Assembly (NCBI GenBank): GCA_042565725.1
Contig: JBHORK010000005.1
Span: forward strand, 4,370-68,369
Origin: Verrucomicrobiota bacterium
Lineage (GTDB): Bacteria; Verrucomicrobiota; Kiritimatiellia; UBA8416; JBHORK01
Direction of reading: 5' to 3'
DNA length: 64,000 nt
Both the position numbers and the translations under genes were made by a program. Positions 46,319 to 64,000 of the stretch are shown here, piece after piece. The notes beneath the pieces are model-generated. The model was not told the origin of the DNA. It made no database searches and saw nothing but the letters and a program-made list of their open reading frames with translations. The stretch's first letter is position 1. Each line of letters begins with the position of its first letter.

Positions 46319-46393
46319 GCCCCCTTCGTCTATCGGCTAGGACATCAGGTTCTCATCCTGGAAAGAGGGGTTCGACTCCCCTAGGGGGTGCCA
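46319..46393 (+). tRNA. tRNA-Glu (anticodon CTC)
   Basis: Hand-folded: acceptor GCCCCCT/AGGGGGT, D-arm GTCT-ATCGGCTA-GGAC, anticodon arm TCAGG-TTCTCAT-CCTGG, variable AAAG, T-arm AGGGG-TTCGACT-CCCCT, discriminator G, encoded CCA. Confidence 0.85.
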
Positions 46394-48063: not shown

Positions 48064-48075
48064 GATGCCTCCTGC

Positions 48076-48119
48076 AGTTCGTATATAATGAGTTACCTAC
48101 TATAGTTATAATACGAACT
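48076..48119. promoter_or_regulatory. 9-bp inverted repeat around AT-rich boxes just upstream of the recombinase start
   Basis: agttcgtat (48076-48084) ... atacgaact (48111-48119) flanks tataat/tatagt-like hexamers 13 nt from the recombinase ATG (48063). Operator/promoter or recombination-site-like. Confidence 0.35.
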
Positions 48120-48556
48120 ACTTGCAAGACAAAGATATCAGTCAGAATGCTAGATTCATGGATTGTGCGGAACAGGGCAGGATTCGAACCGGCGAAAACA
48201 CACCAAGTTTCTTCGAAAACAGATGCATTTAACGATGATGTTACACAGATAGGTACACATGAATCAGGCGCCTTCAGGCGTTTTGAGTCACGGCTAGTCA
48301 TAGAAAAGGCGTCTGCTGACCTTCAGGAGATCATTCATGCTTGGGCGGAATTGGCTGGTTCACTCAAAGCTGCAGCGCTGGCTGTGGTGAGGAGTCAGGC
48401 CTCCAAGAGCAACGCATCCATAGATATCGCCTAGATCACATAATTTGGTTGAATAGTAGCTTCGTTTACAGTGCCCCCATTTTCAACTTGCGTTGAAATG
48501 CTGGACCGTCTATAGTCTCCTGTTAATGAATGGCGAGCAGTGCAGGAGGGTTCGGT

Positions 48557-50053
48557 ATGCGTGTATTATTTACGTTCACGGGTTTTCACGACCCGTACGC
48601 AGTAGGCTTGATCGGCGACGATCAACAGCCGGGGCCCGTTCTGTCTCTTGTTTCGGCGAGACAGTTCGATAAAGTCATCCTTTTCTCTACCCCCACCACG
48701 GAAATCCACACCCAGGATACCGAAGCCGCACTCAAGGAGAGACACCCCAAGCTTGGTGTCAGGATAATAGATCTACCGCTCCCTGACCCTACGGCGTACA
48801 CGGCGATTCTGCGCCTTCTACGCAAGCACGTCGGCGGAATAGTCACAAAGCGGCCGGACGACGAGTACTCCGTTGCAGTTGCTTCCGGGACTCCGCACAT
48901 GCACGCATGCTGGGTGCTTCTTGTCTCCGGAGGCGAGATACCGGCAAAGCTTCTCCACATCCGTCCGCCGAAATACGTCACCAAAGATCTACCATTGGTT
49001 TCAGAAGTTGATCTGTCTGCTCCAGAGTTTCCGGAGGTCAGTGCTTCTCTGTGCATGGAACCGCAGGCGGAATACCAGAAGCATATCGGGTTGGATCAAG
49101 CTTTGCAGGAACTGCAGATCGTTGGGGAACACCCTAAGTTCATTCAAGCCGTAAAGATGGCCTCCGTCGTTGCGGAGCACGACACCCCGGTGCTTGTCAG
49201 GGGAGACACAGGAACCGGCAAAGAACTGATTGCGCGTTTGATTCACCGGCTTTCTGCCCGAGACCAAGACACGTTCATCCCCGTCAATTGCGGGTCCCTT
49301 CCGGGAAACCTTATAGAAAGCATACTGTTCGGTCATAAGAAGGGAGCCTTTACCGGGGCCTCATCCGATCAGATCGGAAAATTCGAGCAAGCGGACGGCG
49401 GCACTCTCTTCCTGGATGAGATCGGGGAACTACCGGCAGAGCTCCAGCCTCGCCTGCTTAGAGTGCTGGAAGATGGAATCATCGAGCCTCTCGGGTCAAA
49501 GCAAAGCAAGAAGGTTGACGTACGGATCGTTGCCGCCACAAATCGTGACCTGGAACAAGCAATTGAGAAAAAGGAATTCCGCGAAGATCTCTACTATCGG
49601 ATCTCCTTCACGGTAATATCACTGCCTTCTTTGAAAGAGAGACGCAGTGACATCCCAACCATTGCTTTGCATTTACTTGCTAAGCTGAATGCTTCTCTGA
49701 AAAAGCCCAAACGTTTGTCTCCAGAGGCTCTGTCTCGCCTCGAACAGCACAACTGGCGCGGCAATGTCAGAGATTTGGAGAATGTTCTTGGCCGGTCGCT
49801 GATGATGGCGACTCAAGAGGTCCTCACTGCCGATGATCTGCTAATCGAGGAACCGCGCCGAAAAAAGGATCCGCTGGCTGTTCTTCCTGAGCCATATGAG
49901 GGGTTCATTCTCGACGACTATCTCAAAAGCGCGAGGAAGCAACTCATTCTTCACGCACTGGAACGGTCCAATGGTAGCCAGACTGGGGCTGCGAAGCTAC
50001 TGGGAATAACCCCCCAGGCGGTGCACAAGTTTGTTAGGAATCAGCAGAAATGA
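48557..50053 (+). CDS. RtcR-like sigma54-dependent transcriptional activator (CARF-like N-domain + AAA+ + Fis-type HTH)
   Basis: Start at M10 (ATG 48557; AGGAGG 7 nt upstream). N-domain ...VAVASGTPHMHACWVLLVSGGEIPAKLLHIRPP parallels E. coli RtcR HITTGTHVAQICWFLL...ARLIQSSPP (from memory). Walker A GDTGTGKE, GAFTGA loop (KKGAFTGAS), Walker B LFLDEIGEL, RIVAATNRDL, FREDLYYRI, C-terminal GAAKLLGITPQAVHKFV. Confidence 0.8.
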   Translation: MRVLFTFTGFHDPYAVGLIGDDQQPGPVLSLVSARQFDKVILFSTPTTEIHTQDTEAALKERHPKLGVRIIDLPLPDPTAYTAILRLLRKHVGGIVTKRPDDEYSVAVASGTPHMHACWVLLVSGGEIPAKLLHIRPPKYVTKDLPLVSEVDLSAPEFPEVSASLCMEPQAEYQKHIGLDQALQELQIVGEHPKFIQAVKMASVVAEHDTPVLVRGDTGTGKELIARLIHRLSARDQDTFIPVNCGSLPGNLIESILFGHKKGAFTGASSDQIGKFEQADGGTLFLDEIGELPAELQPRLLRVLEDGIIEPLGSKQSKKVDVRIVAATNRDLEQAIEKKEFREDLYYRISFTVISLPSLKERRSDIPTIALHLLAKLNASLKKPKRLSPEALSRLEQHNWRGNVRDLENVLGRSLMMATQEVLTADDLLIEEPRRKKDPLAVLPEPYEGFILDDYLKSARKQLILHALERSNGSQTGAAKLLGITPQAVHKFVRNQQK

Positions 50054-50166
50054 ACGGAAATTGCATATATATTGAACCTAGGCTGAAATGCCAGGCTGTC
50101 GCCTTAACGGGCCTGGATGCTTCTAACATGCTGCCAGCAAGCAAGTTGCGCCAATCTTGGCCGACA

Positions 50167-50182
50167 TGGCATGAACCGTGCA
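50167..50182 (+). promoter_or_regulatory. candidate sigma54 (-24/-12) promoter
   Basis: TGGCATGAACCGTGCA vs consensus TGGCACG-N4-TTGCW. Invariant GG and GC are present at the exact 10-nt spacing. It lies 38 nt upstream of ATG 50220 and directly downstream of the sigma54 activator gene. Confidence 0.6.
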
Positions 50183-50219
50183 TAATATGCGAGTCATGTG
50201 GAATGAGAGAATTTACGCC

Positions 50220-51491
50220 ATGAATAACGATAGAGCTTTTACAAATGTGGATGACGAGGCTTTGGTCCAGCGCTTACGGGCGGCCCAGTCCAGAGTTACG
50301 TTTGTTGCCCCCGGCATCAGCAAACTCGTGGCTGGGGAGCTCATCGCCTGTCTGGAGAGGATTCCTGTAGACCAGGTGAACGTCATTCTTGATGTGGATC
50401 CGGAAGTATGCCGCCTCGGCTATGGGGATATTGAGGGCCTTGAGCTGCTCAAGATAGAAGGCGAGAAGCATGGGCTGATGCTATGTCATCAGCCTGGCAT
50501 TCGACTGGGACTACTGATCGCCGATGACACGACGGTTATCTATTCCCCAACTCCATTGCTCATAGAAGCTGGTTCTACGACACCTACAAAACCAAATGGC
50601 ATCTGCATCTCGGGTGACAGTATGGAGACAGTGAAGAAGGCATGCGGCGTAGAAGGCAGTGCTGTTGATCGAGAGCTGGGAATGGATCCCGCCAAGACTC
50701 CCGACATCGAGATGATCAAACAGGATCTGGAACGTAATCCTCCAAAGAGATTCGATGTTGCCCGTGCTGAACGGGTCTTCAATTCCAGGCTTCAGTATGT
50801 CGAGTTCTCGTTCGAGGACTACAAGCTTTCCAAGAAGACCATTTCTATCCCGGCGGAGCTGACGGGTATTACTCAAGACAAAGACCTGATCCAACGCTGG
50901 CGAAATAGTTTTCGGCTCTTCTCGGGTACTTCAGCTCTGGAAGTTGTGCGAAACGAGGGAGCACCCGAGGAGGAATTTCTTACCGAGCAAGGCTTGGAAA
51001 CTGAAAAGAAGGCCATTGTGAGTGAGTTCCTTCTTGTCGTTCCCCGATTTGGCACGGTCATTCTTCGCAGTAGACGTAATGACTTCGACAAACGCATCGA
51101 GGTGTTCAAAGAAAGAGTCGAAGCTTTCAAAAAGGGCGTAGTTCAGCAGGTAGAGGAACACTTGCTGAAGACCAAGGAGAGCTTAATCGGTGACCTGATC
51201 TCCCATGTCAAAGAGAAGCCGCCAGAGAAGTGGAGGAAGACGATGCCCTCTTCCAAGCTCTCGGATACGGAGGCAAAAGAACGTCTACAGGATGAACTGG
51301 AGGGTTTGTTTGGGAGCGTCGAACGTGTCTTTGACCCAAAGGTTCGAATCGTCTTCAAAGAAGTTACGTACGAGAGCATCAGCGATTCCGACTTCCAGGC
51401 GTCGCTGACCAAGCATTTTCCACCTACGGCACTGCAAGAGCTCTTCAGCGAGCACGACGCAGCGCCTGAGGCTACTAGAGAGGAGAACTGA
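50220..51491 (+). CDS. hypothetical protein (first gene of the operon)
   Basis: 423 aa from ATG 50220 (the ORF-track GTG 50178 lies inside the promoter). N-terminal alpha/beta region (VTFVAPGISKL...VNVILDVDPEV...CHQPGIRLGLLIADDTTVIYSPTPLLIEAG). C-terminal charged helical region. No family recognised. Confidence 0.5.
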   Translation: MNNDRAFTNVDDEALVQRLRAAQSRVTFVAPGISKLVAGELIACLERIPVDQVNVILDVDPEVCRLGYGDIEGLELLKIEGEKHGLMLCHQPGIRLGLLIADDTTVIYSPTPLLIEAGSTTPTKPNGICISGDSMETVKKACGVEGSAVDRELGMDPAKTPDIEMIKQDLERNPPKRFDVARAERVFNSRLQYVEFSFEDYKLSKKTISIPAELTGITQDKDLIQRWRNSFRLFSGTSALEVVRNEGAPEEEFLTEQGLETEKKAIVSEFLLVVPRFGTVILRSRRNDFDKRIEVFKERVEAFKKGVVQQVEEHLLKTKESLIGDLISHVKEKPPEKWRKTMPSSKLSDTEAKERLQDELEGLFGSVERVFDPKVRIVFKEVTYESISDSDFQASLTKHFPPTALQELFSEHDAAPEATREEN

Positions 51492-51493
51492 CT

Positions 51494-52507
51494 ATGAGTG
51501 AAAAGACTATATGGGGAATACACGCTGGCCGGACCGGCGACGCTGATTCCCTTTTCTTGAGACATAACGTCATTGCCCTGGGATGGGTGAAGATGGGGAA
51601 TATTGGCGAACTGCCGGGAGAACGCGAAGCGTTCAAGGCACGCATGATGGAAGTCATGCCGGACAAGAAGCCTGGCTACTATCCCAACGCAGCGGGCCAG
51701 CTCTACCGTTTTGTGCATGAGATGAAAGAAGGCGATCTGGTCGTCTATCCTTCCAAGAAAGATAAGCATATGCACATCGGAGAGATCACAGGTTCGTTTA
51801 AGTACGCCACGGAACCTGAACCTGGTTATCCCCAACAGCGACCCGTTAAGTGGCTCAAGGACTTTCCGCGCACGCGTTTCTCTCAAGGCGCATTGTATGA
51901 AACTGGCTCTGCCATGAGCTTTTTCCAAATCAAGAACTATGCCGATGAATTCATCTCAGCATTGACAGGTGAGCAATCAGCCGAAGTGCCGGAAGACGAT
52001 CCGACGGTTTCAGTTGTTGCGGAGGAGATAGAACAAAGCACAGTCGATTTCATTCTCAAGATGCTTTCGCAGGAACTGAAAGGCCATCCGTTCGCTGACT
52101 TTGTGGGTCACCTCCTAAATGTCATGGGCTACAAGACACGCATTGCACCTGAAGGTCCAGACGGCGGCGTTGATATTGTTGCCCACAAGGACGAGCTTGG
52201 GTTTGAGCCCCCCATCATCAAGGTACAAGTGAAGAGCACTGAGGGTACAATTGGCGATCCAGTCGTTTCCCAACTATACGGCAAAGTCGAGACGGGCGAA
52301 TTCGGGATGGTTGTGACGCTCGGCTCTTTCAGTAACCAGGCAATTAGCTTTGCGCGGAATAAGAGCAACCTACGGTTGGTCGACGGCAATGAATTGGTCG
52401 ATATGATCCTCGCGCATTACGAGAAGTTTGACTCCAAGTACAAAGGGCTCCTCCCTCTCCGGCGGGTTTACGTCCCTGAGAAGATAGAGGATTCAGAACG
52501 AGGTTAA
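51494..52507 (+). CDS. Mrr-like restriction endonuclease (PD-(D/E)xK) with N-terminal beta-rich domain
   Basis: 337 aa. C-terminal Mrr_cat-type block FADFVGHLLNVMGYKT...PDGGVDIVAHKD...IIKVQVKST...GMVVTLGSFSNQAISFA. N-terminal about 130 aa (IWGIHAGRTGD...GDLVVYPSKKDKHMHIGEITG) is of uncertain family. Confidence 0.8.
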   Translation: MSEKTIWGIHAGRTGDADSLFLRHNVIALGWVKMGNIGELPGEREAFKARMMEVMPDKKPGYYPNAAGQLYRFVHEMKEGDLVVYPSKKDKHMHIGEITGSFKYATEPEPGYPQQRPVKWLKDFPRTRFSQGALYETGSAMSFFQIKNYADEFISALTGEQSAEVPEDDPTVSVVAEEIEQSTVDFILKMLSQELKGHPFADFVGHLLNVMGYKTRIAPEGPDGGVDIVAHKDELGFEPPIIKVQVKSTEGTIGDPVVSQLYGKVETGEFGMVVTLGSFSNQAISFARNKSNLRLVDGNELVDMILAHYEKFDSKYKGLLPLRRVYVPEKIEDSERG

Positions 52508-52511
52508 AACT

Positions 52512-53390
52512 TTGGGAAGCAATAAAGAGAAAAGAAAACTCCAGATCAGCAATGGGCACTACTTGTTGTTTGATGAGTTGGCTAAACTCATGAATGCAAT
52601 TGTCTCATTGAGTGATCAGAAGAAGATATTGATGTCTGATTTGGAAGAAGCGTCTGGTCTGCCGTTCCGGCAGGTGAGAAACAGAATTAGTATTGGTCGC
52701 GCAATGGGCCTCTTTCTTTCCAAAACGCTTGACCTCAGTGCTGTTGGCTGCTTGATTGCAAAATATGATATGTTTTTCGGCAATAAGGGAACACTGGAGT
52801 GGCTTCATTACAAAGCTTCCTCCTCCTACGTAAACCTTGTGTGGTTCGAAACATTCAACACATTTCTACCTCACCATTCTCCACAGAACTACGAAGAATG
52901 GCTATCTTATTTTCGTGGCACGCTAGCAGAGAACTATACAGAACATTCATTAAAGGATCACCTTGGTAAAGAAGTTCGCTTTCTCATCGATGCTTATACA
53001 TCTTCTGGTTTCAGTAAACTGCAATTGTTGTATGAAGCATCTGATGGGCGGATTTCACGCAGGAGATATGCTCGGCCATGTGAAGAAGTCCTCGCTGCCA
53101 TGATCTACACCTTTGGTGCAAACCAAGGTGCTACCCTTTTGCAGGTTGCCGAGCTTGTAGAGCAACCAGCGTCTCCAGGGCTGCTTCTGGCCATGGATCA
53201 AGGCACGCTTTTGCAGCTATTGGAGAGCTTGAACGGTCGCGGATGGCTCAGGTTGGAGACCACCCACAATCTTGCTCAAGTGCGCCTGTTGGACGGATAT
53301 GACCCTTTGGCCTTCCTTGAGGCATTCTATGAGAAACGCAAGCCCGTGCCCACGAAGAAGAAGACGAAAGAAGAGAGGATGCTGTTGTGA
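52512..53390 (+). CDS. hypothetical protein with wHTH-like segment (possibly DUF4007-like; unverified)
   Basis: 292 aa from TTG 52512 (alternative ATG 52590). ILMSDLEEASGLPFRQVRNRISIGRAMGLF looks like a winged helix. No BrxA/BrxB motifs recognised. 4-nt gap to the upstream gene and 4-nt overlap with the next one. Confidence 0.4.
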   Translation: MGSNKEKRKLQISNGHYLLFDELAKLMNAIVSLSDQKKILMSDLEEASGLPFRQVRNRISIGRAMGLFLSKTLDLSAVGCLIAKYDMFFGNKGTLEWLHYKASSSYVNLVWFETFNTFLPHHSPQNYEEWLSYFRGTLAENYTEHSLKDHLGKEVRFLIDAYTSSGFSKLQLLYEASDGRISRRRYARPCEEVLAAMIYTFGANQGATLLQVAELVEQPASPGLLLAMDQGTLLQLLESLNGRGWLRLETTHNLAQVRLLDGYDPLAFLEAFYEKRKPVPTKKKTKEERMLL

Positions 53391-53851
53391 CCGATGGTGT
53401 TGACATTCTTAAGGAGGTAAAAAACCTAGCAAAGCGCAGGCGAGGCAAGGCTCTGATGGTTCTCACAACCGACTACACCGGCCAGAAAGCATGGGCGGCG
53501 GAACTTGCCCAGCAGGCAGACGGTCAACACATGGATCTTCTTGATCACTTTGCTGCCAACGAGGAGTTGGCGGGGAAAGTGGGAGCTATCAATGTTGAGG
53601 AGCTTTTCGAATTACTGTCAGAGGTCGCAGATGCAAAGCTGTTGATTGTTACCGGGCTGGAGTTTCTGCGTGCTGCCTGGTCAGGTCAAAGCGGTATTCA
53701 GGAGGCATTCTGTCATCATGTAGAAACTTGGGATAAACGACTATCGCTGGTGTTTGTAACACAATTTGAGAAGTTGCTGGAGAACCGGGTTTCAGATCGT
53801 TTTCAGCATCAATTCACATTTAATCAGAAGGATACATTTGCACTGACATGA
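53387..53851 (+). CDS. small hypothetical protein in the BrxB/BrxF position; no Walker A
   Basis: 154 aa, GTGA and ATGA overlaps with its neighbours (translational coupling). LLIVTGLEFLRAAWSG is faintly BrxB-like. TTDYTGQKAW is at best a degenerate P-loop. Confidence 0.4.
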   Translation: MTDGVDILKEVKNLAKRRRGKALMVLTTDYTGQKAWAAELAQQADGQHMDLLDHFAANEELAGKVGAINVEELFELLSEVADAKLLIVTGLEFLRAAWSGQSGIQEAFCHHVETWDKRLSLVFVTQFEKLLENRVSDRFQHQFTFNQKDTFALT

Positions 53852-57792: not shown

Positions 57793-57817
57793 TAATAGAT
57801 AAGGTCAGGAGCAACCT

Positions 57818-60800
57818 ATGATTAAAATAGCTGACATAGTCAGATTGAAGAGCGGATACGCCAACTTCGTTAAATTGAAGTCTGATTTCGAAGAGGCCGA
57901 AATGAATGCCGGGCGTATGGCGATGTATCGCCCGACGAAAGCCCACCGCAATGCGTTGGAACGATTAGCTCGTGGGCTATATCAGCCTAACGACAAGAAG
58001 TTCTACATGTTGAGTGGTTCTTATGGAACTGGAAAATCACATTTGTCCCTGATGTTCGCAAACATGCTGAGTCACTCAAGCAGTGACCCGGAAATGAAAC
58101 AATTCTTCGATAACTACACGACCCTTGATGCCGAGAAGGGAAAGATGCTCAGAAATGTGCGCAAAGGGGGCCAGTATCTTGTCGCTATTTGTGACTACCA
58201 AACAGGCCGGAGTTTTGAGGAACGTGTGCTGCGTGCGGTGTTTGAGGCGTGTGACCGCATGGGATTGGATGCGGGTGTTCACACTGAGTTCGACGAGGCG
58301 GAACGACTACTTGCTGACTGGGAATCCAAGGCAAAGGACAAGAAGGCCATCCGTAACTATTACGAGGACTTCAGTCAGGCGTTGGAGAATGTTGCGTCAG
58401 GTGTGACTGTTGTGGCGCTTCGCGCGGAACTGAAGAAATTCAATGCAGAAATGCTTGAGAATTTTCGTGTGGCATACAAAGAGGCCCAGGGCGGTACGGA
58501 ATTCCAGGCTCAATCCGGCAACATTATCCCAATTATTGAACGCCTAGTGAAGACCGACGCCTTCAAGGATCGTTTCGTTGGGCTAGCTATCTTCTTTGAT
58601 GAATTCGGCTTTACGCTGGAAAAGGCAGAGTATTCCAAAGATGTGCTACAGGGGTTTATGGAGTCAATCTGCCAGAATCTATCCAACGTGGTGTTTGTCG
58701 GGTGTATTCACAAGTCATTCTCAGCTTATTCGGACAGGTTCAGTCAGGATGATGCAGCTGTGATGACGGCTCGCCTTACTTCGGTTGACCTTTTGAATGA
58801 AGGCATTGAAGAAATCATCAGTGCAATTGTTGAAGTAGATAAATCTGCTGATACATGGAAGAAGGAGATAGAGCCGAAGCTGGGTGTTCTTGATCAACTC
58901 CTGCCAACCTGTGGCACGTTGAAACTGTTCCCGTGGATCGATGACGTACAACGCGTCCGCCAACGGGTTCTGGAGGATATCTATGGCGTGCATCCAATGA
59001 CACTGGCTTGCTTGCTCCGGCTATCATCAGAGGTGGGTTCAGACGTCCGTAGTACGTTTACGTTTTTTGCCGGTGATGTTGGCGGAGAACCAGGCTCGTA
59101 TCTGGAGTTTATCGAACGCACAGGGCTGTTGGTGGATGGTGGAAAACTCAGCCTATATACCGTAGACGGACTTTATATATTTTTCAAAGAGCAGCTCAGT
59201 CCACGAAACCCTGAACTTCGAGATCGTCAGCGGCAATTGGTGAATGGATATGTTGCCAGTACTGATGCGCTTCGCAAATCGATGCAAGGTGAGCTCTTTG
59301 ATGAGGCGTCTGATGAGCACACGCGGTTGCTTCGCACTATTCTGATTTACCAGTTGTGCCAGATCCCTTGCGCCGCTGAGAATATCCAGTTTGGACTTTA
59401 CGCGCTCACGAACCCCGAAAAGAAACAGATTGAAAGGAAGCTGAAGCACTTGGAGAAGGCCGGTGCATTGTTCTTCCGTAGACAATCCAAGACCTATGAG
59501 ATGGCCGTCGGAACCGGCGAGGATCCGTATGATCTCATAGAACAATATTTGAAAGAAGCCTCGCTACATCCACGCAACAAGGTCGACGAATTGCTTCGCG
59601 AAGGTGGCGACCGCAAGGATCTAGAATACCTGGACGCCAAACAGTACAACCTGCATTTTGGCGAAGACAAGCGATTCAAGCGATACTTCGCTCAGGCGAA
59701 AGACCTTGGTGAGCAGTACTGGGCAAAACTGCAAGAAGATTTCGATGCTGCCCAAGCCAAAGAGAAATCGAGCTATGAAGGGTGTATCGTATATGCACTT
59801 TGTGAAGACGAGGCGGAGCGTAAAGTCGCCAGGGATGCCGTTAAGACTGTTCCGAGTGACAATCTAATCGTGGGGGTTCCTCATGATCCAATCCCCTTCT
59901 CTGAAACGCTTCTTCGCGTTAAGGCCTGTCGCCACTATCTCAGTCCTGACTCAACCACAAAACTAAGCGCGCAGACAGAATCGCGTTTGCGCGATATTTT
60001 CGACAATCCTGAGGATGGCTTCTTACCTGAATTGCAGAGAATCTTGATCCAGATCCGAGAAGGAGCCAATTCATGTTGGTACGGTAAGGTGGGAGCCGTA
60101 GTGGTTGACAAGCCGCCACAGGAGCACAAACCCGTTGATGATGTATGCACTTCCTTGTTCGCAAAGCGATGCCGGATAAAACACCCTGATCTGAACTGTG
60201 TGCACGATGATAAGTGGCGGACCGGCAAGAATACGGCACTGAAGCAGGCAATCAGCAATCTCTTGGAAGCTGATCGTGTCCAAATCGACAATGGTAACCC
60301 TGATAATCACGGTGAGAAGAGGTATCTCGAAAAGACCCTATTGAAAGGTGCCGGTGCCTTGAGGAAGACAGATAGTCAAGGCCCTGTGACTTACTTTGCC
60401 TGCGAAACAGATTCAGTCAAGCTCTCTGACGATATGCCGGTTCTCAAAGAACTTCTGGCTAGAATGGCGAACCTCAAACCTTCAGAGACCTTAATGCTGG
60501 GAGAATTCCTACAGGAAGCACGTGCACCAGAGTATGGCGCAAGCGGAACAATGTTGGCGCTGTGTCTCGCTCACGTCGTGCGGGCCTTTGGTGAACGACT
60601 GCGTGCCTATAGGGACTCAACTCGAATGGCTGAGGGCCTCCTGGACAGCTGCGACGATATTATTGCGACAGTAGCAGATCCAGCAACCAAGCTCATTCTT
60701 CAGGTCAGGGATATTTCTGAACCCCAGAAGCTACTTGTCGAAGGTTTCGCCAAGGCCGTGAAGGCTCCCGCACTTAAACATGGTGAGATCCGCGCACTGA

Positions 60801-61888
60801 GCGACGTCATGGAAATGCTATCGCTGTGGTGGCGGGACAAAGTTATGCCGGTGGCCAGAGTAGAGGCATTGTACAAGAAGGCAGATCAAAAGCGTATCGC
60901 TGCTTTGAAAAATGTCTTTGCCAAAACAGAAGATAGTGATCGGTTTGAGTTCATCTTAAGTCTCTTGCCAAGCGTGTACACAGGGGAGCCCGTGGGTGAT
61001 GATATCGCAAAGAAGGATGCAGAATCCATAAGCGAGAAGTTTTCAAGAGACGTTCTTCTGCTTGAGTCGGGCGAGATCAAAGCAAATGGCTTGGTTGCGG
61101 AAGCGGTGGCCAAGCTCCATGGAGAAGCTGGAGATGTCGTGGTCTGCGAGCGCGTTGTGACAGACTGGTTCAAATCTTTGAACCCCACACAACGCGATGC
61201 GTTAAGGTATGAAGACCATCCTGAAGCTCAAACGCTGGTAAAGCTTCTGAGTGGAGGCACCGAATTTCCGACAGCTCTTTTCAGTCTCTTACCCAGAGAT
61301 TTTGGGCTCGGCGAGATGTACGAATGGACAGCTTTGCACACCGATGACTATGTAGCAAAATGGCGCCAAGCCAAGGAAGCGGTGGAAGCGGCCGCCGTTG
61401 TCGTCAAATCTCCAGCGATTCAAGCTGGCGTGAAGGCCAGGAAGATTTCTGATACACGTTTTGAGGTCGAGAAAGGTGGAGTCATCGACATCGTCCTCTC
61501 TGATGGCACAGGGACTATTATCTACACAATTGATGGCGAAGATCCGAAGTCCTCAGAAACAGCCATACGACTAGATGGTGGAGCTGCTTTATCGAAGGAG
61601 TTTGATACCTTACCGCATATCACCATCAAGGCGCGCGCACTGGATGACCAAGGCAACTCAAGCGATCTTGTTTCTGCTGATATTGTCAACAAGAGCATGG
61701 AATATAAAGTTGTTGTCACGCAAAATGACCTCTACTGGAAAGAAGGGGTTTTTAAGTTTCCCGAAGATATTGAGGGGTTAAGATCTGTGATGACGTCCAT
61801 GCTGCAGGAATGCGCAAAACAGAAGATCATAACCGATGCCCAAGCGGGTAAGTTGATCGATCACATTGATCAGGAACTGGGAGCTTAA
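57818..61888 (+). CDS. brxC: BrxC/PglY-like large P-loop ATPase
   Basis: 1356 aa. Walker A at about residue 66 (MLSGSYGTGKSHLSLMF), Walker-B-like AIFFDEFG. Size and position next to PglX/PglZ fit BrxC/PglY (DUF499-like). AGGAG RBS. Confidence 0.7.
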   Translation: MIKIADIVRLKSGYANFVKLKSDFEEAEMNAGRMAMYRPTKAHRNALERLARGLYQPNDKKFYMLSGSYGTGKSHLSLMFANMLSHSSSDPEMKQFFDNYTTLDAEKGKMLRNVRKGGQYLVAICDYQTGRSFEERVLRAVFEACDRMGLDAGVHTEFDEAERLLADWESKAKDKKAIRNYYEDFSQALENVASGVTVVALRAELKKFNAEMLENFRVAYKEAQGGTEFQAQSGNIIPIIERLVKTDAFKDRFVGLAIFFDEFGFTLEKAEYSKDVLQGFMESICQNLSNVVFVGCIHKSFSAYSDRFSQDDAAVMTARLTSVDLLNEGIEEIISAIVEVDKSADTWKKEIEPKLGVLDQLLPTCGTLKLFPWIDDVQRVRQRVLEDIYGVHPMTLACLLRLSSEVGSDVRSTFTFFAGDVGGEPGSYLEFIERTGLLVDGGKLSLYTVDGLYIFFKEQLSPRNPELRDRQRQLVNGYVASTDALRKSMQGELFDEASDEHTRLLRTILIYQLCQIPCAAENIQFGLYALTNPEKKQIERKLKHLEKAGALFFRRQSKTYEMAVGTGEDPYDLIEQYLKEASLHPRNKVDELLREGGDRKDLEYLDAKQYNLHFGEDKRFKRYFAQAKDLGEQYWAKLQEDFDAAQAKEKSSYEGCIVYALCEDEAERKVARDAVKTVPSDNLIVGVPHDPIPFSETLLRVKACRHYLSPDSTTKLSAQTESRLRDIFDNPEDGFLPELQRILIQIREGANSCWYGKVGAVVVDKPPQEHKPVDDVCTSLFAKRCRIKHPDLNCVHDDKWRTGKNTALKQAISNLLEADRVQIDNGNPDNHGEKRYLEKTLLKGAGALRKTDSQGPVTYFACETDSVKLSDDMPVLKELLARMANLKPSETLMLGEFLQEARAPEYGASGTMLALCLAHVVRAFGERLRAYRDSTRMAEGLLDSCDDIIATVADPATKLILQVRDISEPQKLLVEGFAKAVKAPALKHGEIRALSDVMEMLSLWWRDKVMPVARVEALYKKADQKRIAALKNVFAKTEDSDRFEFILSLLPSVYTGEPVGDDIAKKDAESISEKFSRDVLLLESGEIKANGLVAEAVAKLHGEAGDVVVCERVVTDWFKSLNPTQRDALRYEDHPEAQTLVKLLSGGTEFPTALFSLLPRDFGLGEMYEWTALHTDDYVAKWRQAKEAVEAAAVVVKSPAIQAGVKARKISDTRFEVEKGGVIDIVLSDGTGTIIYTIDGEDPKSSETAIRLDGGAALSKEFDTLPHITIKARALDDQGNSSDLVSADIVNKSMEYKVVVTQNDLYWKEGVFKFPEDIEGLRSVMTSMLQECAKQKIITDAQAGKLIDHIDQELGA

Positions 61889-61905
61889 GTTGAGATGGAA
61901 CAGTG

Positions 61906-64000
61906 ATGAATAAAGATGTCAGAGAAATTTGCTTCACAGGTACACCTTCTGCAGAAGTGCCCGAAGGTGTTATCCTCGTTGGCAGCGAGGCTGATTACGT
62001 GCGTGCCTGCCAGGCGCTCGTGATGGGCGGCTGCACACTCTGGGTGACGAATAAGGCTATCTACTCCTGGCTAAAAAACTTTTGTGCACAAACTGCGCAG
62101 GCGTGCCATTTCAGAGAACTTACTTCCATCTCGGTTTTGACCGATAAATGGGGTGTCGCGGCTCCTGACTGGCTCACTGATGATATTGTTATTCAACAAG
62201 ATCTCCAGAGCATCCCCATCGAAGCTGACAGATACGACTCGTTCATGGATGCTATGCTGGCTCATGTCTACGGGGATGCAACTTTGGCTTCTGCTATTAC
62301 ATCCGAAAATGTGGCATCCATTATTACCCAGGTGGCAGCTCCCGAAGCACGACCTCGAATAGACCGATACGCCATTGTGAATGAATGCCTTCGGGAGAAG
62401 TGTGCGATATGGAGGCAGAATGCTAGCGAGGAATGGGTAGATTACGTCTGTGCTGGGCTGGAAAAGAACCCTCAGACACTATGGCGAGAGTTGACACTGT
62501 GGGCTCTTCTTTCTCAATACCCAGAACGACTCTTTGAATTTGTGGTTTCAATGCAGACGGCTTCATCTGTTCGCAAGCTGCCGATCAACACGCTGAAATC
62601 TCTCCCGCTTGAATCCGGCGGGCGAGAGCAGGCTATTGCCCAGATTGATGTTTTCTTCCGCGATATTTCACCAACCGTCACGGATCTCGGGGATTTCAGA
62701 AAAGTCCTTGCGGCCATGTCCGGTCGATTACGCAAGGAATACAGTAACTGCATCGAGCTCCTTCGTCGATTGAATATCAAACTTGAAGAGAATGACCTGT
62801 TGGCATTGAAGAAACGATTTTCCGAATGTCCTGCTCTTAGCTCAGTCATGCTCGACGAAGTCGACATGTTCATGGTTCCGGAGAAACCGGTGCTTAACAA
62901 GGATAAGGGCTCTATTGAAGCAGACGACTGGATTCAATTTGCTGATAAGTATTCACGATACCGACGATGGCAAATACGGACAGGCAGTGTCGACACGGAC
63001 TTGGAGAAGCTGGCTGTTGGATTCAGCGATTGGTACATTCAGAACTACGAAGCCATAGGGCAAATGTCATCACGGAGCTTGGTTCACACTTTGTCGGATT
63101 ACGCAAGTGTGCAAGAGAAGAATCGGCTTTGTCTGATCCTTCTGGTGGACTGCCTTCCCTTGGCTTTTACCACATTGCTGGACAGAGCGTTATCAAATGC
63201 GGGGTTTCAGAAACACCGAAGCGATTACAGGTTTGCTCCTTTACCCAGCGACACTGCTACCTCAAAACCAAAGCTACTCGCCGGATCATGGACGACAACA
63301 GATACAGACTATCGCAAGATCTTGAAACAGCGCGCCAAAGAGGAATGGAATGATCGAGCAATCTTCTATTGCTCCGCACTGAAGGATGTGCAGGAATTCG
63401 ATCCCTCATTAGACTGCGCAACGGTTGTTTTGAACTGGTTGCTTTGCGACGAGATTCTCCACTCTGACATTGAGGCTCAAGGGACCTCGTATGAAGAGGA
63501 GTTGTCCCGCTGCTTTGCACGTTTGGCCGACACAGCCAGAGCACTGTTCGACCGAGCCGAATGCCGGGAAGATGATTTCTCTATCATTGTAATGACAGAC
63601 CATGGCGCAACCAGCATCCTCTCGGAAGAAAGGCAGTCGTTTGACTCGAAAATGGTAAAAAAGCTATTTCCAGAGGAAAAGCATCGCTTCGGCATTGTGG
63701 ATACGACCGAGGCTGACTCGATTCCCGAGAATCTCTGGGCTCTGGGCTACAGATTCATTGATCCATTTGGCGAAGACAATTCTACGTACTTCATCCCAAA
63801 GGGCCACAGCACTGTGGGCGGACGTTCCTCTGCAGGATTTGTTCATGGTGGGGCCACACTGGAGGAGGTAATCGTCCAGACTAGTGTGTTTAGCCCTGCA
63901 CCAGTTTCATGGGATCTTCCCAGTACGCGGTTCCTTAATCTCAGGCAGGATTCGTCGACCGGCAAGGCTGTTTTCTACGTTCAGCGTGTGATGCCGCTGA
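61906..64000 (+). CDS. pglZ: PglZ domain protein (alkaline-phosphatase superfamily), C-terminus beyond the window
   Basis: Absent from the ORF track (no stop in window). Manual translation from ATG 61906 is open for 698 codons. CLILLVDCLPLAF, APLPSDTATSKPKLLAG (nucleophile block), IIVMTDHGATS, FVHGGATLEEVIV are the PglZ signature blocks. Confidence 0.85.
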   Translation, partial: MNKDVREICFTGTPSAEVPEGVILVGSEADYVRACQALVMGGCTLWVTNKAIYSWLKNFCAQTAQACHFRELTSISVLTDKWGVAAPDWLTDDIVIQQDLQSIPIEADRYDSFMDAMLAHVYGDATLASAITSENVASIITQVAAPEARPRIDRYAIVNECLREKCAIWRQNASEEWVDYVCAGLEKNPQTLWRELTLWALLSQYPERLFEFVVSMQTASSVRKLPINTLKSLPLESGGREQAIAQIDVFFRDISPTVTDLGDFRKVLAAMSGRLRKEYSNCIELLRRLNIKLEENDLLALKKRFSECPALSSVMLDEVDMFMVPEKPVLNKDKGSIEADDWIQFADKYSRYRRWQIRTGSVDTDLEKLAVGFSDWYIQNYEAIGQMSSRSLVHTLSDYASVQEKNRLCLILLVDCLPLAFTTLLDRALSNAGFQKHRSDYRFAPLPSDTATSKPKLLAGSWTTTDTDYRKILKQRAKEEWNDRAIFYCSALKDVQEFDPSLDCATVVLNWLLCDEILHSDIEAQGTSYEEELSRCFARLADTARALFDRAECREDDFSIIVMTDHGATSILSEERQSFDSKMVKKLFPEEKHRFGIVDTTEADSIPENLWALGYRFIDPFGEDNSTYFIPKGHSTVGGRSSAGFVHGGATLEEVIVQTSVFSPAPVSWDLPSTRFLNLRQDSSTGKAVFYVQRVMPL

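What the first reader, a model, noticed from the sequence alone, without database searches (positions are those of the whole stretch)
48557..64000. Island-borne BREX-like operon with non-canonical composition and order (unknown / Mrr / two small unknowns / PglX / BrxC-like / PglZ)
Seen in sequence: seven plus-strand genes are packed with 2-25-nt gaps or 4-nt GTGA/ATGA overlaps.
- 423-aa unknown (50220-51491).
- Mrr-type PD-(D/E)xK nuclease (51494-52507).
- 292-aa wHTH-like unknown (52512-53390).
- 154-aa unknown (53387-53851).
- 1314-aa NPPW methyltransferase (53848-57792).
- 1356-aa GTGKS P-loop protein (57818-61888).
- PglZ, open to the window end (61906 onward).

Established knowledge: PglX + BrxC/PglY + PglZ is the BREX core. 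In the six published BREX types as I recall them, type 1 is brxA-brxB-brxC-pglX-pglZ-brxL and type 3 is brxF-brxC-pglXI-brxHII-pglZ-brxA.

Differences here:
- The methyltransferase precedes the ATPase.
- I cannot recognise BrxA (DUF1819) or BrxB (DUF1788).
- A methylation-dependent-type nuclease and an unknown gene sit in the same operon.
- The whole operon follows a sigma54 promoter.

Inference: this is either a new BREX subtype or a member of the poorly characterised methylation-associated PglZ systems. I recall an eight-gene 'MADS' system from Pseudomonas with methyltransferase, ATPase, PglZ-like, nuclease and kinase genes, but cannot verify equivalence from memory.
Basis: partly seen in the sequence, partly recalled or inferred. 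Interest (0 to 1): 0.9.

Follow-up and report, generated by a model that had tools for sequence, protein, structure and literature searches.

The report
Unclassified methylating BREX-like defence operon
This is a phage-defence gene cluster of the BREX kind whose scaffold proteins resemble the sulphur-modifying type 4 BREX/Ssp systems but which carries a DNA adenine methyltransferase instead. It sits on an integrated island behind an inducible sigma-54 switch, and it belongs to a conserved family for which I found no name in the classifications I could check.

Summary
All seven plus-strand genes are at the stated coordinates with 2-25 nt gaps or 4-nt overlaps.

Related loci show a conserved six-gene core: DUF4007 protein, 154-aa protein, about 1310-aa N6-adenine methyltransferase, about 1350-aa P-loop ATPase, PglZ and BrxL. 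BrxL would lie beyond the window end.

- 46 of 51 informative loci keep PglZ+BrxL, and 21 of 30 fully covered loci keep exactly the window's order.
- The loci come from more than ten phyla.
- A distant clade uses the BREX type 1 order (A-B-C-X-Z-L).

Family profiles place the DUF4007 protein, ATPase and PglZ nearest type 4 BREX and Ssp proteins, not type 1. The methyltransferase is type IIG/DrmMI-like rather than an orthologue of PglX. No PAPS reductase is present. No curated BREX 1-6 model passes its cut-off for any window protein, and MADS is rejected.

The 423-aa protein and Mrr are variable accessory cargo. An RtcR-like CARF/sigma-54 activator and a sigma-54 promoter precede the operon, and this arrangement recurs in four related loci.

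Verdict: a new variant of BREX, a type-4-like chassis with methylation. The mechanism is inferred, not shown.

The parts
46319..46393 (+). tRNA-Glu (CTC), the likely integration site at the left edge of the island
   Evidence: ARAGORN. Its 3' end overlaps the 3' end of the recombinase gene. GC rises to the right of it.
46381..48063 (-). Large serine recombinase (560 aa), the island integrase candidate
   Evidence: Pfam Resolvase 4e-43, Recombinase 1.8e-13 and Zn_ribbon_recom 4.7e-12.
48530..50053 (+). RtcR-like transcriptional activator with CARF, sigma-54 AAA+ and Fis-type HTH domains (507 aa)
   Evidence: PADLOC RtcR_PspF2 CARF_AAA_HTH 2.7e-134. Pfam Sigma54_activat 2.3e-68, RtcR 4.2e-7 (above cut-off) and HTH_8. 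The same kind of gene sits at the 5' end of related operons in L020, L044, L085 and the P0154 contig.
50167..50182 (+). Sigma-54 (-24/-12) promoter candidate, TGGCATGAACCGTGCA
   Evidence: It is the only match to TGGCAYN5KTGCW in the window on both strands (0.37 expected window-wide). It lies in the 166-nt gap after the activator gene, 37 nt before ATG 50220. Analogous motifs follow the RtcR-like gene in L020 (TGGCACATGGTTTGCT) and L044.
50220..51491 (+). 423-aa accessory protein of unknown function, with an N-terminal PLD-like fold lacking HxK and a long helical C-terminal part
   Evidence: No Pfam, NCBIfam or PADLOC hit. More than 524 homologues, all unnamed. AF2 pLDDT is 78.7. Foldseek hits for the N-terminal domain include TrmBL2, PLD, F13, BfiI and NgoAVII. 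It recurs at different positions in related operons (L085, P0154 contig, L050, L054). It also occurs outside them, next to Mrr in L086 and alone in L087.
51494..52507 (+). Mrr-type PD-(D/E)xK nuclease (337 aa), an accessory effector
   Evidence: Pfam Mrr_cat 4.2e-26 over residues 193-305. PADLOC PDC-S02 3.2e-136 and mREase_IV 7.5e-11. It is absent from most related loci. A 423-family protein plus Mrr pair also exists outside BREX-like operons (L086).
52512..53390 (+). DUF4007 protein (292 aa), the BrxA/SspB-like DNA-binding core component
   Evidence: Pfam DUF4007 2.9e-12, above cut-off. PADLOC SspB 2e-6. The family HMM hits the DUF4007 proteins of an Ssp-like locus (77 bits) and a type 4 BREX locus (74 bits), but not BrxA. 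It is conserved at this position in related loci.
53387..53851 (+). 154-aa core protein with a predicted AAA+/ORC-like alpha/beta fold and degenerate Walker motifs, a candidate BrxB (iSTAND) counterpart
   Evidence: AF2 pLDDT 89.9 and pTM 0.87. Foldseek top hits are PCH-2, ORC and proteasomal AAA+ proteins, with TM about 0.45-0.5. No intact GxxxxGK[ST] motif. There are 109 representative clusters worldwide, almost all stand-alone proteins of about 150-165 aa or fragments. The three distant members checked all sit in MTase-DUF4007-150aa-ATPase(-PglZ-BrxL) loci.
53848..57792 (+). N6-adenine DNA methyltransferase (1314 aa), gamma-class, type IIG/DrmMI-like, with an N-terminal REase-like region lacking ExK
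   Evidence: Pfam Eco57I 2.2e-20 and MmeI_Mtase 8e-8. PADLOC REase_MTase_IIG 1.5e-70 and DrmMI 1.9e-66, but PglX only 3.4e-9. NCBIfam BREX_1_MTaseX scores 55 bits against a 500-bit cut-off. Motifs DPAMGSGHF and NPPW are present. The N-terminal consensus has no E-x-K.
57818..61888 (+). P-loop ATPase (1356 aa), the BrxC/SspC-like core component
   Evidence: PADLOC SspC 9.7e-30 and BrxC 1.6e-13. No Pfam ATPase-domain hit. 338 homologues at 53-69% identity in many phyla, all 'hypothetical'. Walker A GTGKS and Walker B DE are invariant. The family HMM scores 132.7 bits to an Ssp-like SspC and 54.9 bits to a type 4 BrxC, with no hit to type 1 BrxC.
61906..64000 (+). PglZ (first 698 of about 790-810 aa, cut by the window end)
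   Evidence: NCBIfam BREX_PglZ_4 6.6e-6 and PglZ_3 1.5e-5, both below cut-off. Orthologues carry PF08665. Invariant residues are D415, T450, D515, H519, D565, H566 and H647. The family HMM scores 74.2 bits to a type 4 PglZ and 22.4 bits to a type 1 PglZ. In 46 of 51 related loci, PglZ and a following BrxL are both present.

Best explanation
The window carries the 5' eleven-twelfths of a BREX-family defence operon. The family has a conserved six-gene core:
- a DUF4007 protein (BrxA/SspB-like DNA binder);
- a 154-aa degenerate P-loop protein (candidate BrxB-like iSTAND);
- a large N6-adenine methyltransferase;
- a BrxC/SspC-like ATPase;
- PglZ;
- BrxL, which would lie just beyond the window end.

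The DNA-binding, ATPase and PglZ components are closest to those of the phosphorothioate-writing type 4 BREX and Ssp systems. The PAPS-reductase modification module is replaced by a type IIG/DrmMI-like methyltransferase.

Inferred mechanism, by analogy with BREX:
1. The methyltransferase, loaded and licensed by the ATPase, DUF4007 protein and 154-aa protein, marks host DNA with m6A at a short asymmetric motif.
2. Unmarked incoming DNA is recognised by the same complex.
3. Its replication is blocked or it is cut by PglZ and BrxL.

In this genome the core is preceded by two accessory genes in the same operon. One is a PLD-fold protein of unknown role. The other is an Mrr-type nuclease, probably a back-up against modified phage DNA.

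The whole unit sits behind a sigma-54 promoter next to an RtcR-like CARF activator. Expression is therefore probably switched on by a small-molecule or RNA-fragment stress signal. The unit lies on an island integrated at tRNA-Glu by a serine recombinase.
For: Shown:
- Gene content and spacing.
- Conserved synteny. 46 of 51 loci have PglZ+BrxL downstream of the ATPase, and 21 of 30 fully covered loci have the order DUF4007-154aa-MTase-ATPase-PglZ-BrxL. A distant clade at 25-29% identity uses the BREX-1 order DUF4007-(154aa)-ATPase-MTase-PglZ-BrxL, or MTase first.
- BrxL of relatives passes the curated BrxL model: TIGR02688 scores 441 bits against a 329-bit cut-off.
- Catalytic motifs are intact in the MTase, the ATPase and PglZ.
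- Family HMMs score type 4/Ssp proteins well above type 1 proteins for DUF4007, the ATPase and PglZ.
- A reference type 4 locus has the same syntax: PAPS reductase, Uma2, DUF4007, 142 aa, ATPase, PglZ, BrxL.
- The 154-aa model is confident and AAA+/ORC-like.
- The sigma-54 motif is unique in the window and correctly placed. RtcR-like genes with sigma-54 motifs recur in L020 and L044, and RtcR-like genes head the operon in L085 and the P0154 contig.
- Accessory genes vary between loci.

From the literature:
- DUF4007 is described as a BrxA-like fold, and iSTAND as universal in BREX (PMC12839542).
- RtcR-headed defence superoperons are described in PMC11090510.
Against: - No experiment bears on this family, so methylation, the target motif and phage exclusion are all inferred.
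- PglZ, the ATPase, the DUF4007 protein and the 154-aa protein all fall far below every curated BREX cut-off. PDB sequence searches found nothing.
- The BrxB equivalence rests on fold and position only. hhalign against BrxB and against the 142-aa type 4 protein gave no signal.
- BrxL in this genome is unseen, because the window ends and the contig could not be fetched.
- The sigma-54 motif alone is not significant window-wide: 29 of 100 shuffles gave at least one match.
- The RtcR-like activator heads only about 5 of about 50 loci, so it is not a family feature.
- 'Not previously classified' rests on searches of a limited literature library and on model libraries dated 2023-2026.
Confidence: 0.72

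Rival explanations
1. It is simply a highly divergent type 1 BREX (brxA-brxB-brxC-pglX-pglZ-brxL) with brxC and pglX swapped.
For: The family has six genes with the same functional slots. The distant clade has exactly the type 1 order (L051, L056, L057, L062, L069, L074). BrxL is present. An accessory nuclease lies between the ATPase and MTase genes, as in a canonical type 1 plasmid locus (L093, DUF262 between brxC and pglX).
Against: No BREX-1 model is met: BREX_1_MTaseX scores 55-82 bits against 500, and PglZ type B scores 17 against 400. There are no DUF1819, DUF1788 or BrxC hits. Family HMMs hit type 4/Ssp DUF4007 proteins, ATPases and PglZ, but not type 1 BrxA or BrxC, and only weakly type 1 PglZ.
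Confidence: 0.1
2. It is a type 4 BREX in the strict sense (a phosphorothioate system), and the methyltransferase is an unrelated neighbouring gene.
For: The DUF4007 protein, SspC-like ATPase, PglZ and BrxL are nearest type 4. The 2026 census found PAPS reductase in only 89% of type 4 taxa (PMC12839542). PMC12914056 treats a Fischerella methyltransferase next to brxL, brxZ and sspB as possibly independent.
Against: No PAPS reductase or cysteine desulfurase is present in the window operon, in any gene table of a related locus, or in the cargo genes sampled. The methyltransferase is as conserved and as syntenic as the other five genes in both clades, including translationally coupled 4-nt overlaps.
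Confidence: 0.05
3. It is a MADS (methylation-associated defence system) or DISARM relative.
For: The MTase scores highly to DrmMI models (1.9e-66). A clade B ATPase weakly hits mad8 (2e-5).
Against: NCBIfam MAD2 scores 30 bits against a 720-bit cut-off, and no other MADS model hits. No PADLOC mad model hits any window protein. No DrmA, DrmB or DrmC homologue is present in the operon.
Confidence: 0.02
4. It is a chance juxtaposition in a defence island: a type IIG-like RM gene, an Mrr type IV enzyme and a decayed Ssp/BREX remnant, not one system.
For: Defence islands pile up unrelated systems. Mrr and the 423-aa protein do occur independently elsewhere (L086, L087).
Against: The six core genes co-occur in the same order in dozens of loci across Desulfobacterota, Planctomycetota, Spirochaetota, Latescibacterota, Verrucomicrobiota, Acidobacteriota, Chloroflexota, Bacillota, Bacteroidota and an Abditibacteriota plasmid. 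The 154-aa family was found only in such loci in every case checked. Catalytic residues are intact.
Confidence: 0.05

Closest known systems
BREX type 4 (brxP-brxC-pglZ-brxL, with DUF4007 fused or adjacent to the PAPS reductase)
   Same: It shares a DUF4007 DNA-binding protein, an SspC/BrxC-like giant ATPase, PglZ and BrxL in the same relative order. A small gene of about 142-154 aa sits between DUF4007 and the ATPase in the reference locus L091. Family HMMs score type 4 proteins best among the BREX types tested.
   Different: The defining PAPS reductase (BrxP) and cysteine desulfurase are absent, and a 1300-aa N6-adenine methyltransferase takes their place. The BREX_PglZ_4 cut-off is not met (25-40 bits against 140). 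BrxL in clade A carries a C-terminal MIT_C/PLD-like domain, whereas type 4 BrxL is described as lacking C-terminal extensions (PMC12839542).
BREX type 1 (brxA-brxB-brxC-pglX-pglZ-brxL)
   Same: It has six functional slots, m6A-type methyltransferase chemistry (NPPW), PglZ and BrxL. The distant clade has the identical gene order. Accessory nucleases are embedded between the ATPase and the MTase (L093).
   Different: BrxA (DUF1819), BrxB (DUF1788), BrxC and PglX are not detectable by sequence. The MTase is nearer type IIG/DrmMI enzymes. In the window's clade the MTase precedes the ATPase.
SspABCD phosphorothioate modification system
   Same: The DUF4007 (SspB-like) protein and the SspC-like ATPase are the best-scoring named relatives. 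The nearest annotated outgroup locus on a plasmid is Ssp-like (L089).
   Different: There is no SspA or SspD. PglZ, BrxL and a methyltransferase are present. The modification is predicted to be base methylation rather than backbone sulphur.
RtcR-headed defence superoperons (CoCoNuT-associated; PMC11090510)
   Same: A CARF/sigma-54 AAA+/HTH activator sits at the 5' end of a long co-directional defence operon, with ancillary restriction genes between the activator and the main system.
   Different: The regulated system here is BREX-like, not McrBC/CoCoNuT. I found no report of such an association for BREX in the searches made. Canonical type 1 BREX uses WYL-type BrxR (L093).
BREX-related (BR) type 3 and BRC systems (PMC12839542)
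   Same: They are other recently defined systems that recombine a BrxC-like ATPase, PglZ, iSTAND and, in BRC, DUF4007.
   Different: BR type 3 has DUF499, a Swi2/Snf2 helicase and a stand-alone PglZ, with neither DUF4007 nor BrxL. BRC has HerA/FtsK, GNAT and TGT and no methyltransferase. None of these marker genes is present here.
MADS (mad1-8)
   Same: It is a methylation-based multi-gene defence system.
   Different: No mad model is met. The gene set is different.

Membership tests
BREX superfamily (sensu Goldfarb 2015 / PMC12839542) | A PglZ (alkaline-phosphatase superfamily) protein with intact metal-binding and nucleophile residues | tested here: met
   Orthologues carry PF08665. D415, T450, D515, H519, D565, H566 and H647 are invariant across both clades and present in the window fragment. 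Scores to curated subtype models are all below cut-off.
BREX superfamily | A BrxC/PglY-type large P-loop ATPase adjacent to PglZ | tested here: met
   PADLOC SspC 9.7e-30 and BrxC 1.6e-13. Walker A and B are invariant. The ATPase is immediately upstream of PglZ in nearly all clade A loci.
BREX superfamily | A DNA-modification enzyme in the same operon | tested here: met
   A gamma-class N6-adenine MTase with DPAMGSG and NPPW motifs, syntenic in both clades. Activity was not tested.
BREX type 1 | BrxA (DUF1819) and BrxB (DUF1788) | tested here: not met
   No Pfam, NCBIfam or PADLOC hit to either. The family HMMs do not hit BrxA or BrxB of L093, and hhalign gave 0.1% probability. Fold-level analogues are present: DUF4007, and a 154-aa protein with an AAA+-like fold.
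BREX type 1 | PglX, PglZ and BrxC meeting the curated BREX-1 models | tested here: not met
   BREX_1_MTaseX scores 55 bits against 500. PglZ_1_B scores 17 against 400. No BrxC model hits in NCBIfam.
BREX type 1 / type 4 | BrxL (MCM-like AAA+ with N-terminal DNA-binding domains) downstream of PglZ | tested here: inconclusive
   Not visible in the window, which ends inside pglZ, and the contig could not be retrieved. PglZ and BrxL are both present in 46 of 51 related loci, and BrxL passes TIGR02688 at 441 bits against 329.
BREX type 4 | BrxP (PAPS reductase) as the modification enzyme, writing phosphorothioate | tested here: not met
   No PAPS-reductase hit in any window protein or in the gene tables of related loci. 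Compare the true type 4 locus L091.
BREX type 4 | A DUF4007 component and an SspC-like BrxC | tested here: met
   Pfam DUF4007 scores 46.7 bits against a 27-bit cut-off. SspC is the best ATPase model. Family HMMs hit type 4 DUF4007 at 74 bits and type 4 BrxC at 55 bits.
MADS | mad1-mad8 gene set (NCBIfam antiphage_MADS models, PADLOC mad models) | tested here: not met
   The only hit is MAD2 at 30 bits against 720. No PADLOC mad hit for any window protein.
DISARM | DrmA helicase, DrmB (DUF1998) and DrmC/DrmD with DrmMI | tested here: not met
   Only the MTase resembles DrmMI. No Drm helicase or DUF1998 is present in the operon.
RtcR-type CARF sigma-54 activators | CARF N-terminal domain, sigma-54 interaction AAA+ domain and a C-terminal HTH | tested here: met
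   PF06956 RtcR scores 30.1 bits against 23.1, Sigma54_activat hits at 2.3e-68, and HTH_8 hits at 6e-7. PADLOC RtcR_PspF2 2.7e-134. It is not the RtcR equivalog: 340 bits against a 650-bit cut-off. The ligand and the regulated promoter were not tested.

The most novel reading that the evidence does not exclude
This is a seventh, so far unnamed BREX subtype. An Ssp/type-4-like chassis (DUF4007, small degenerate P-loop protein, SspC-like ATPase, PglZ, BrxL) has independently recruited a type IIG/DrmMI-like adenine methyltransferase in place of the phosphorothioate-writing PAPS reductase. That would show that the self-marking chemistry of BREX is a swappable module on a constant sensing and restriction scaffold. 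In a subset of loci, including this one, the whole system is additionally placed under a CARF-domain sigma-54 activator. That would make it a signal-induced rather than constitutive BREX.
Probability: 0.55. Interest if true: 0.72.

Novelty: new variant of a known kind. Interest (0 to 1): 0.62.

Why it matters
How the common scaffold (BrxA/B/C, PglZ, BrxL) reads the self-mark and stops phage DNA is still an open question for BREX.

A family that keeps a type-4/Ssp-like scaffold but writes m6A instead of phosphorothioate gives a natural swap experiment. Comparing it with type 4 would separate what depends on the chemistry of the mark from what depends on the scaffold.

It also fills a gap in defence annotation. 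All six core proteins are 'hypothetical' in GenBank and RefSeq, and only BrxL passes a curated model. Current annotation tools therefore probably miss the system or report an orphan BrxL.

The CARF/sigma-54 control suggests that some BREX-like systems are induced by an infection or RNA-damage signal. This is directly testable with a reporter on the 50167-50182 promoter.

Tried and rejected
- **Extending the contig past the window end.** Exact-product look-ups of the ATPase and the 154-aa protein found no record. BrxL in this genome therefore remains inferred.
- **Single-protein scan of genome contigs.** It found nothing. The alignment-based scan worked.
- **PDB sequence searches.** Searches with the MTase, the ATPase profile and a full-length PglZ gave no usable relatives.
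- **hhalign of the 154-aa family.** Comparisons with type 1 BrxB and with the 142-aa protein of a type 4 locus gave no signal. The templates were single sequences, so this is uninformative rather than negative.
- **Profile search of 1.84 billion representatives with the 154-aa family.** The aim was to find fusions to PglZ, as described for the type 4 iSTAND. There was none. Hits were almost all stand-alone proteins of about 150-165 aa or shorter fragments. The two long hits (1353 and 362 aa) were marginal, at E of 3e-4 or weaker.
- **Literature searches.** 'BREX type 7/VII' and TIGR02688 gave no papers. Six organism names of carriers were absent from the held supplementary text of PMC12839542, which may be truncated.
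- **MADS, DISARM, BR types 1-3, BRC and MANTIS/Gao_RL.** All were considered and rejected on gene content.
- **An active type IIG endonuclease in the MTase N-terminus.** Rejected, because the conserved N-terminal region lacks an E-x-K motif.
- **TIGR02688 as a type-4-specific marker.** Rejected, because the same name is given to BrxL of a BrxC/MTase/PglZ plasmid locus (L090).

Full report
**1. The observation**

- 50220-51491. The longer GTG start at 50178 lies inside the promoter motif. The NCBI protein P0148, 100% identical, is 423 aa.
- 51494-52507, 52512-53390, 53387-53851, 53848-57792 and 57818-61888.
- An open frame from 61906 to the window end.

Spacings are 2, 4, -4, -4, 25 and 17 nt. 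An eighth co-directional gene, 48530-50053, lies upstream.

Identical proteins in the public collection identify the source as a 72,263-bp contig of a Verrucomicrobiota bacterium MAG, locus tags ACFLS1_01680 and ACFLS1_01695. The contig DNA could not be retrieved.

**2. What each gene is**

Profile scans gave the following.
- **48530-50053.** An RtcR-like CARF/sigma-54 AAA+/HTH activator (PADLOC RtcR_PspF2 2.7e-134; Pfam Sigma54_activat 2.3e-68; RtcR domain above its cut-off).
- **423-aa protein.** No hit in any library.
- **337-aa protein.** Mrr_cat (4e-26) and PADLOC candidate PDC-S02.
- **292-aa protein.** DUF4007, above the Pfam cut-off, with weak SspB hits.
- **154-aa protein.** No hit.
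- **1314-aa protein.** An Eco57I/MmeI-type N6-adenine methyltransferase. It is far closer to type IIG and DrmMI models (236 and 223 bits) than to PglX (33 bits; NCBIfam BREX_1_MTaseX 55 bits against a 500-bit cut-off). Motifs DPAMGSGHF and GNPPW are present. The conserved N-terminal region (YPLYEDW ... LNWGILTDGxxWRLY) looks REase-like but has no E-x-K.
- **1356-aa protein.** Best matches are SspC (1e-29), then BrxC (1.6e-13). It has no Pfam ATPase-domain hit.
- **Truncated last protein.** Weak matches to BREX PglZ models, with type 4 best (6.6e-6).
- **MADS.** The only hit is MAD2, at 30 bits against a 720-bit cut-off.

**3. Relatives and synteny**

The ATPase has 338 detected homologues at 53-69% identity, all unnamed. 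An alignment-based scan of one genome per species found 93 carriers among 185,579 species. They fall into two clades.
- A close clade at 44-73% identity: Desulfobacterota, Planctomycetota, Spirochaetota, Latescibacterota, Verrucomicrobiota, Acidobacteriota, Gemmatimonadota and others.
- A distant clade at 25-29% identity: Anaerolineae, Clostridia and Bacteroidota.

Gene tables and a phmmer-based synteny script show a six-gene core.
- 46 of 51 non-redundant loci with enough downstream sequence have PglZ followed by BrxL.
- 21 of 30 fully covered loci have exactly DUF4007, 154 aa, MTase, ATPase, PglZ, BrxL.
- The distant clade has DUF4007-(154 aa)-ATPase-MTase-PglZ-BrxL, which is the BREX type 1 order. 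Alternatively it has MTase-DUF4007-154 aa-ATPase-PglZ-BrxL. The latter includes the Abditibacteriota plasmid pIAD-21, where every gene is annotated 'hypothetical'.

BrxL of relatives is the only component that passes a curated model: TIGR02688 at 441 bits against a 329-bit cut-off. The window therefore stops about 0.3 kb before the end of pglZ, and a brxL gene is expected next.

**4. The two small core proteins**

PMC12839542 reports that DUF4007 adopts the BrxA-like tripartite HTH/wHTH architecture and is the BrxA counterpart in type 4 BREX and the BRC system.

The 154-aa protein gave a confident AlphaFold model (pLDDT 89.9, pTM 0.87).
- Its best PDB fold matches are AAA+/ORC-type P-loop domains (PCH-2/TRIP13, ORC subunits, proteasomal ATPases), with TM about 0.45-0.5.
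- The alignment shows no intact Walker A. It reads LT-x-D-x-x-G-Q-K, with a TGLE in place of the Walker B acidic pair.
- This is what PMC12839542 calls an inactive STAND (iSTAND), the BrxB class.
- Sequence-level tests against BrxB and against the 142-aa protein of a type 4 locus gave nothing. The equivalence is therefore by fold, size and position only.

A profile search of 1.84 billion representatives found just 109 clusters. Almost all are stand-alone proteins of about 150-165 aa or shorter fragments. The three most distant members I could look up all sit in MTase-DUF4007-about 150 aa-ATPase loci. PglZ and BrxL follow where the contig reaches that far. In every case checked, the small protein marked this system.

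**5. Placement among BREX types**

I fetched three reference loci.
- A canonical type 1 locus: Salmonella plasmid L093, BrxR-DUF1819-DUF1788-BrxC-DUF262-PglX-PglZ-BrxL.
- A type 4 locus: Pseudanabaena plasmid L091, PAPS reductase-Uma2-DUF4007-142 aa-1803 aa-740 aa-BrxL-cysteine desulfurase.
- An Ssp-like locus: Treponema L089.

HMMs built from the family's own members scored them as follows.

| Family HMM | Ssp-like | Type 4 | Type 1 |
|---|---|---|---|
| ATPase | 133 bits | 55 bits | no hit |
| DUF4007 | 77 bits | 74 bits | no hit (BrxA) |
| PglZ | not applicable | 74 bits | 22 bits |
| BrxL | not applicable | 356 bits | 274 bits |
| MTase | not applicable | not applicable | 12-22 bits (either PglX-type enzyme) |

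The scaffold is therefore type-4/Ssp-like. The modification enzyme is a methyltransferase of type IIG/DrmMI ancestry. The defining type 4 enzyme, BrxP, is absent everywhere I looked. PglZ keeps its catalytic set and the ATPase keeps its Walker motifs.

**6. Is it already described?**
- The 2026 census of BREX and BREX-related systems (PMC12839542) defines types 1-6, BR 1-3 and BRC. None combines DUF4007 with a methyltransferase, PglZ and BrxL.
- That census does report PAPS reductase in only 89% of its type 4 taxa. This could hide such loci.
- PMC12914056 mentions a Fischerella locus with brxL, brxZ, sspB and a methyltransferase next to dndBCDE, and treats the methyltransferase as possibly independent.
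- Searches for a seventh BREX type returned nothing.
- MANTIS/Gao_RL is BR type 2 and is unrelated in content.

I conclude, with moderate confidence, that the family is unnamed.

**7. Accessory genes and the cargo slot**

In the close clade the MTase-ATPase gap ranges from -6 to about 7000 nt, with a median of about 1.8 kb. Genes found there include:
- GmrSD;
- HEC-01A/AAA_21 ATPases;
- Schlafen/AlbA_2-HATPase_c_4 proteins;
- a YhcG PD-(D/E)xK nuclease;
- a KAP/PifA-like NTPase;
- a C5 methylase;
- a protein with a partial IS200-type (Y1_Tnp) transposase match;
- a STAND NTPase.

The window has an empty slot (25 nt). It carries its cargo upstream instead: the 423-aa protein and Mrr.

The 423-aa family has more than 524 members with no Pfam hit.
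- The N-terminal domain has a PLD-like fold, with hits to TrmBL2, PLD, F13, BfiI and NgoAVII.
- G-x-R stands where H-x-K would be.
- A DVDxE..R cluster is invariant, and long helices follow.

It recurs in this BREX-like family at the 5' end (L085, P0154 contig), in the cargo slot (L054) and after BrxL (L050). It also occurs outside the family, next to an Mrr gene (L086) or alone (L087). Its role is unknown. I regard it as a portable accessory, not a core part.

**8. Regulation and mobility**

TGGCATGAACCGTGCA (50167-50182) fits the sigma-54 -24/-12 consensus (GG-N10-GC). It is the sole match in the window. On its own it is not significant window-wide (0.37 expected). However, it sits in the 166-nt gap directly after a sigma-54 activator gene, 37 nt before the first ATG.

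RtcR-like genes with full CARF coverage sit immediately upstream of the core in L020 and L044, each followed by a sigma-54-like motif. They also head the RtcR-423aa-...-DUF4007 arrangement in L085 and the P0154 contig. RtcR-headed defence 'superoperons' are described for CoCoNuTs, with RNA fragments bearing 2',3'-cyclic phosphate proposed as ligands (PMC11090510). By analogy I infer signal-induced expression here.

The unit lies just right of tRNA-Glu and a large serine recombinase, with a GC step. This is consistent with an integrated island.

**9. Mechanism (inferred)**

By analogy with BREX type 1 and with the ATPase-loaded methylation shown for a BREX-related system (bioRxiv 10.64898/2026.09.23.753747), I propose the following.
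1. The ATPase, with DUF4007 and the 154-aa protein, loads the methyltransferase onto a short asymmetric motif for m6A self-marking.
2. Unmarked DNA engages the same complex together with PglZ and BrxL, which block replication or cleave it.
3. Mrr adds type IV-like cover against modified phage DNA.
4. The CARF activator raises expression on an infection or RNA-damage signal.

None of these steps is shown.

**10. Verdict**

The MADS alternative does not. The 'non-canonical composition' resolves into a conserved six-gene core plus local cargo.

Novelty: a new variant of a known kind. Interest is moderate to high for defence-system specialists.

Noticed in passing
Related loci, between the MTase and ATPase genes (e.g. 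L011:6234-9976, L029:6864-9986, L030:6229-9009, L008:7015-10008): The MTase-ATPase junction of the close clade is a cargo slot of 0-7 kb. It holds unrelated defence genes: GmrSD, HEC-01A ATPase, Schlafen/AlbA_2, YhcG nuclease, KAP/PifA-like NTPase, a C5 methylase and a protein with a partial IS200-type transposase match. A canonical type 1 plasmid locus has a DUF262 nuclease at the equivalent brxC-pglX junction (L093).
   Followed up: partly
window 50220-51491; L086:2704-5011; L087:10001-11269: The 423-aa protein belongs to an unnamed family of more than 524 members with an N-terminal PLD-like fold lacking HxK. It forms a two-gene pair with an Mrr_cat/DUF8426 nuclease next to an integrase and another Eco57I-type MTase (L086). 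It also occurs alone in an integrase-flanked island (L087). It may be a defence module in its own right.
   Followed up: partly
L003:2041-3468 and similar long DUF4007 ORFs in L005, L008, L010-L012, L026, L029, L031, L033; L094-L097 upstream genes: In many relatives the DUF4007 protein is about 440-500 aa, with an N-terminal UPF0758_N (RadC N-terminal-like) extension. In other loci a separate RadC gene sits just upstream of the MTase. This suggests a recurrent RadC link. The window has the short 292-aa form.
   Followed up: no
L001:16474-18456, L002, L003 versus L088:12926-14383, L094:12503-13921: BrxL comes in two forms in this family. One is about 660-700 aa with a C-terminal MIT_C (PLD-like) domain. 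The other is about 470-485 aa without it, the form described for type 4 BREX.
   Followed up: no
L006:14105-18827; L032, L035, L046, L061, L068, L070, L072, L075 ATPase ORFs: Several relatives look disrupted. PglZ in L006 is split by about 2.2 kb of inserted sequence. The ATPase reading frame is broken into two pieces in at least eight MAG loci. These may be decay or assembly errors.
   Followed up: no
L020:3345-3640 region: Between the RtcR-like gene with its sigma-54 motif and DUF4007, L020 has a small ORF beginning MAMFRVVNIVDGDTFDV. By eye it resembles a thermonuclease/SNase-like protein, and would be another 5' accessory nuclease. My coordinates were out of frame, so it was never scanned.
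   Followed up: no
L092 (Thermus oshimai pTHEOS01): A BrxL named by the same NCBIfam model sits next to tubulin-like, vWA and TROVE-domain genes with no PglZ. BrxL-type proteins are evidently used outside BREX.
   Followed up: no
window 47975-48434: Two small overlapping ORFs (108 aa on the minus strand, 95 aa on the plus strand) lie between the serine recombinase and the RtcR-like gene. Neither has a Pfam hit. They may be a recombination directionality factor or a regulator.
   Followed up: no
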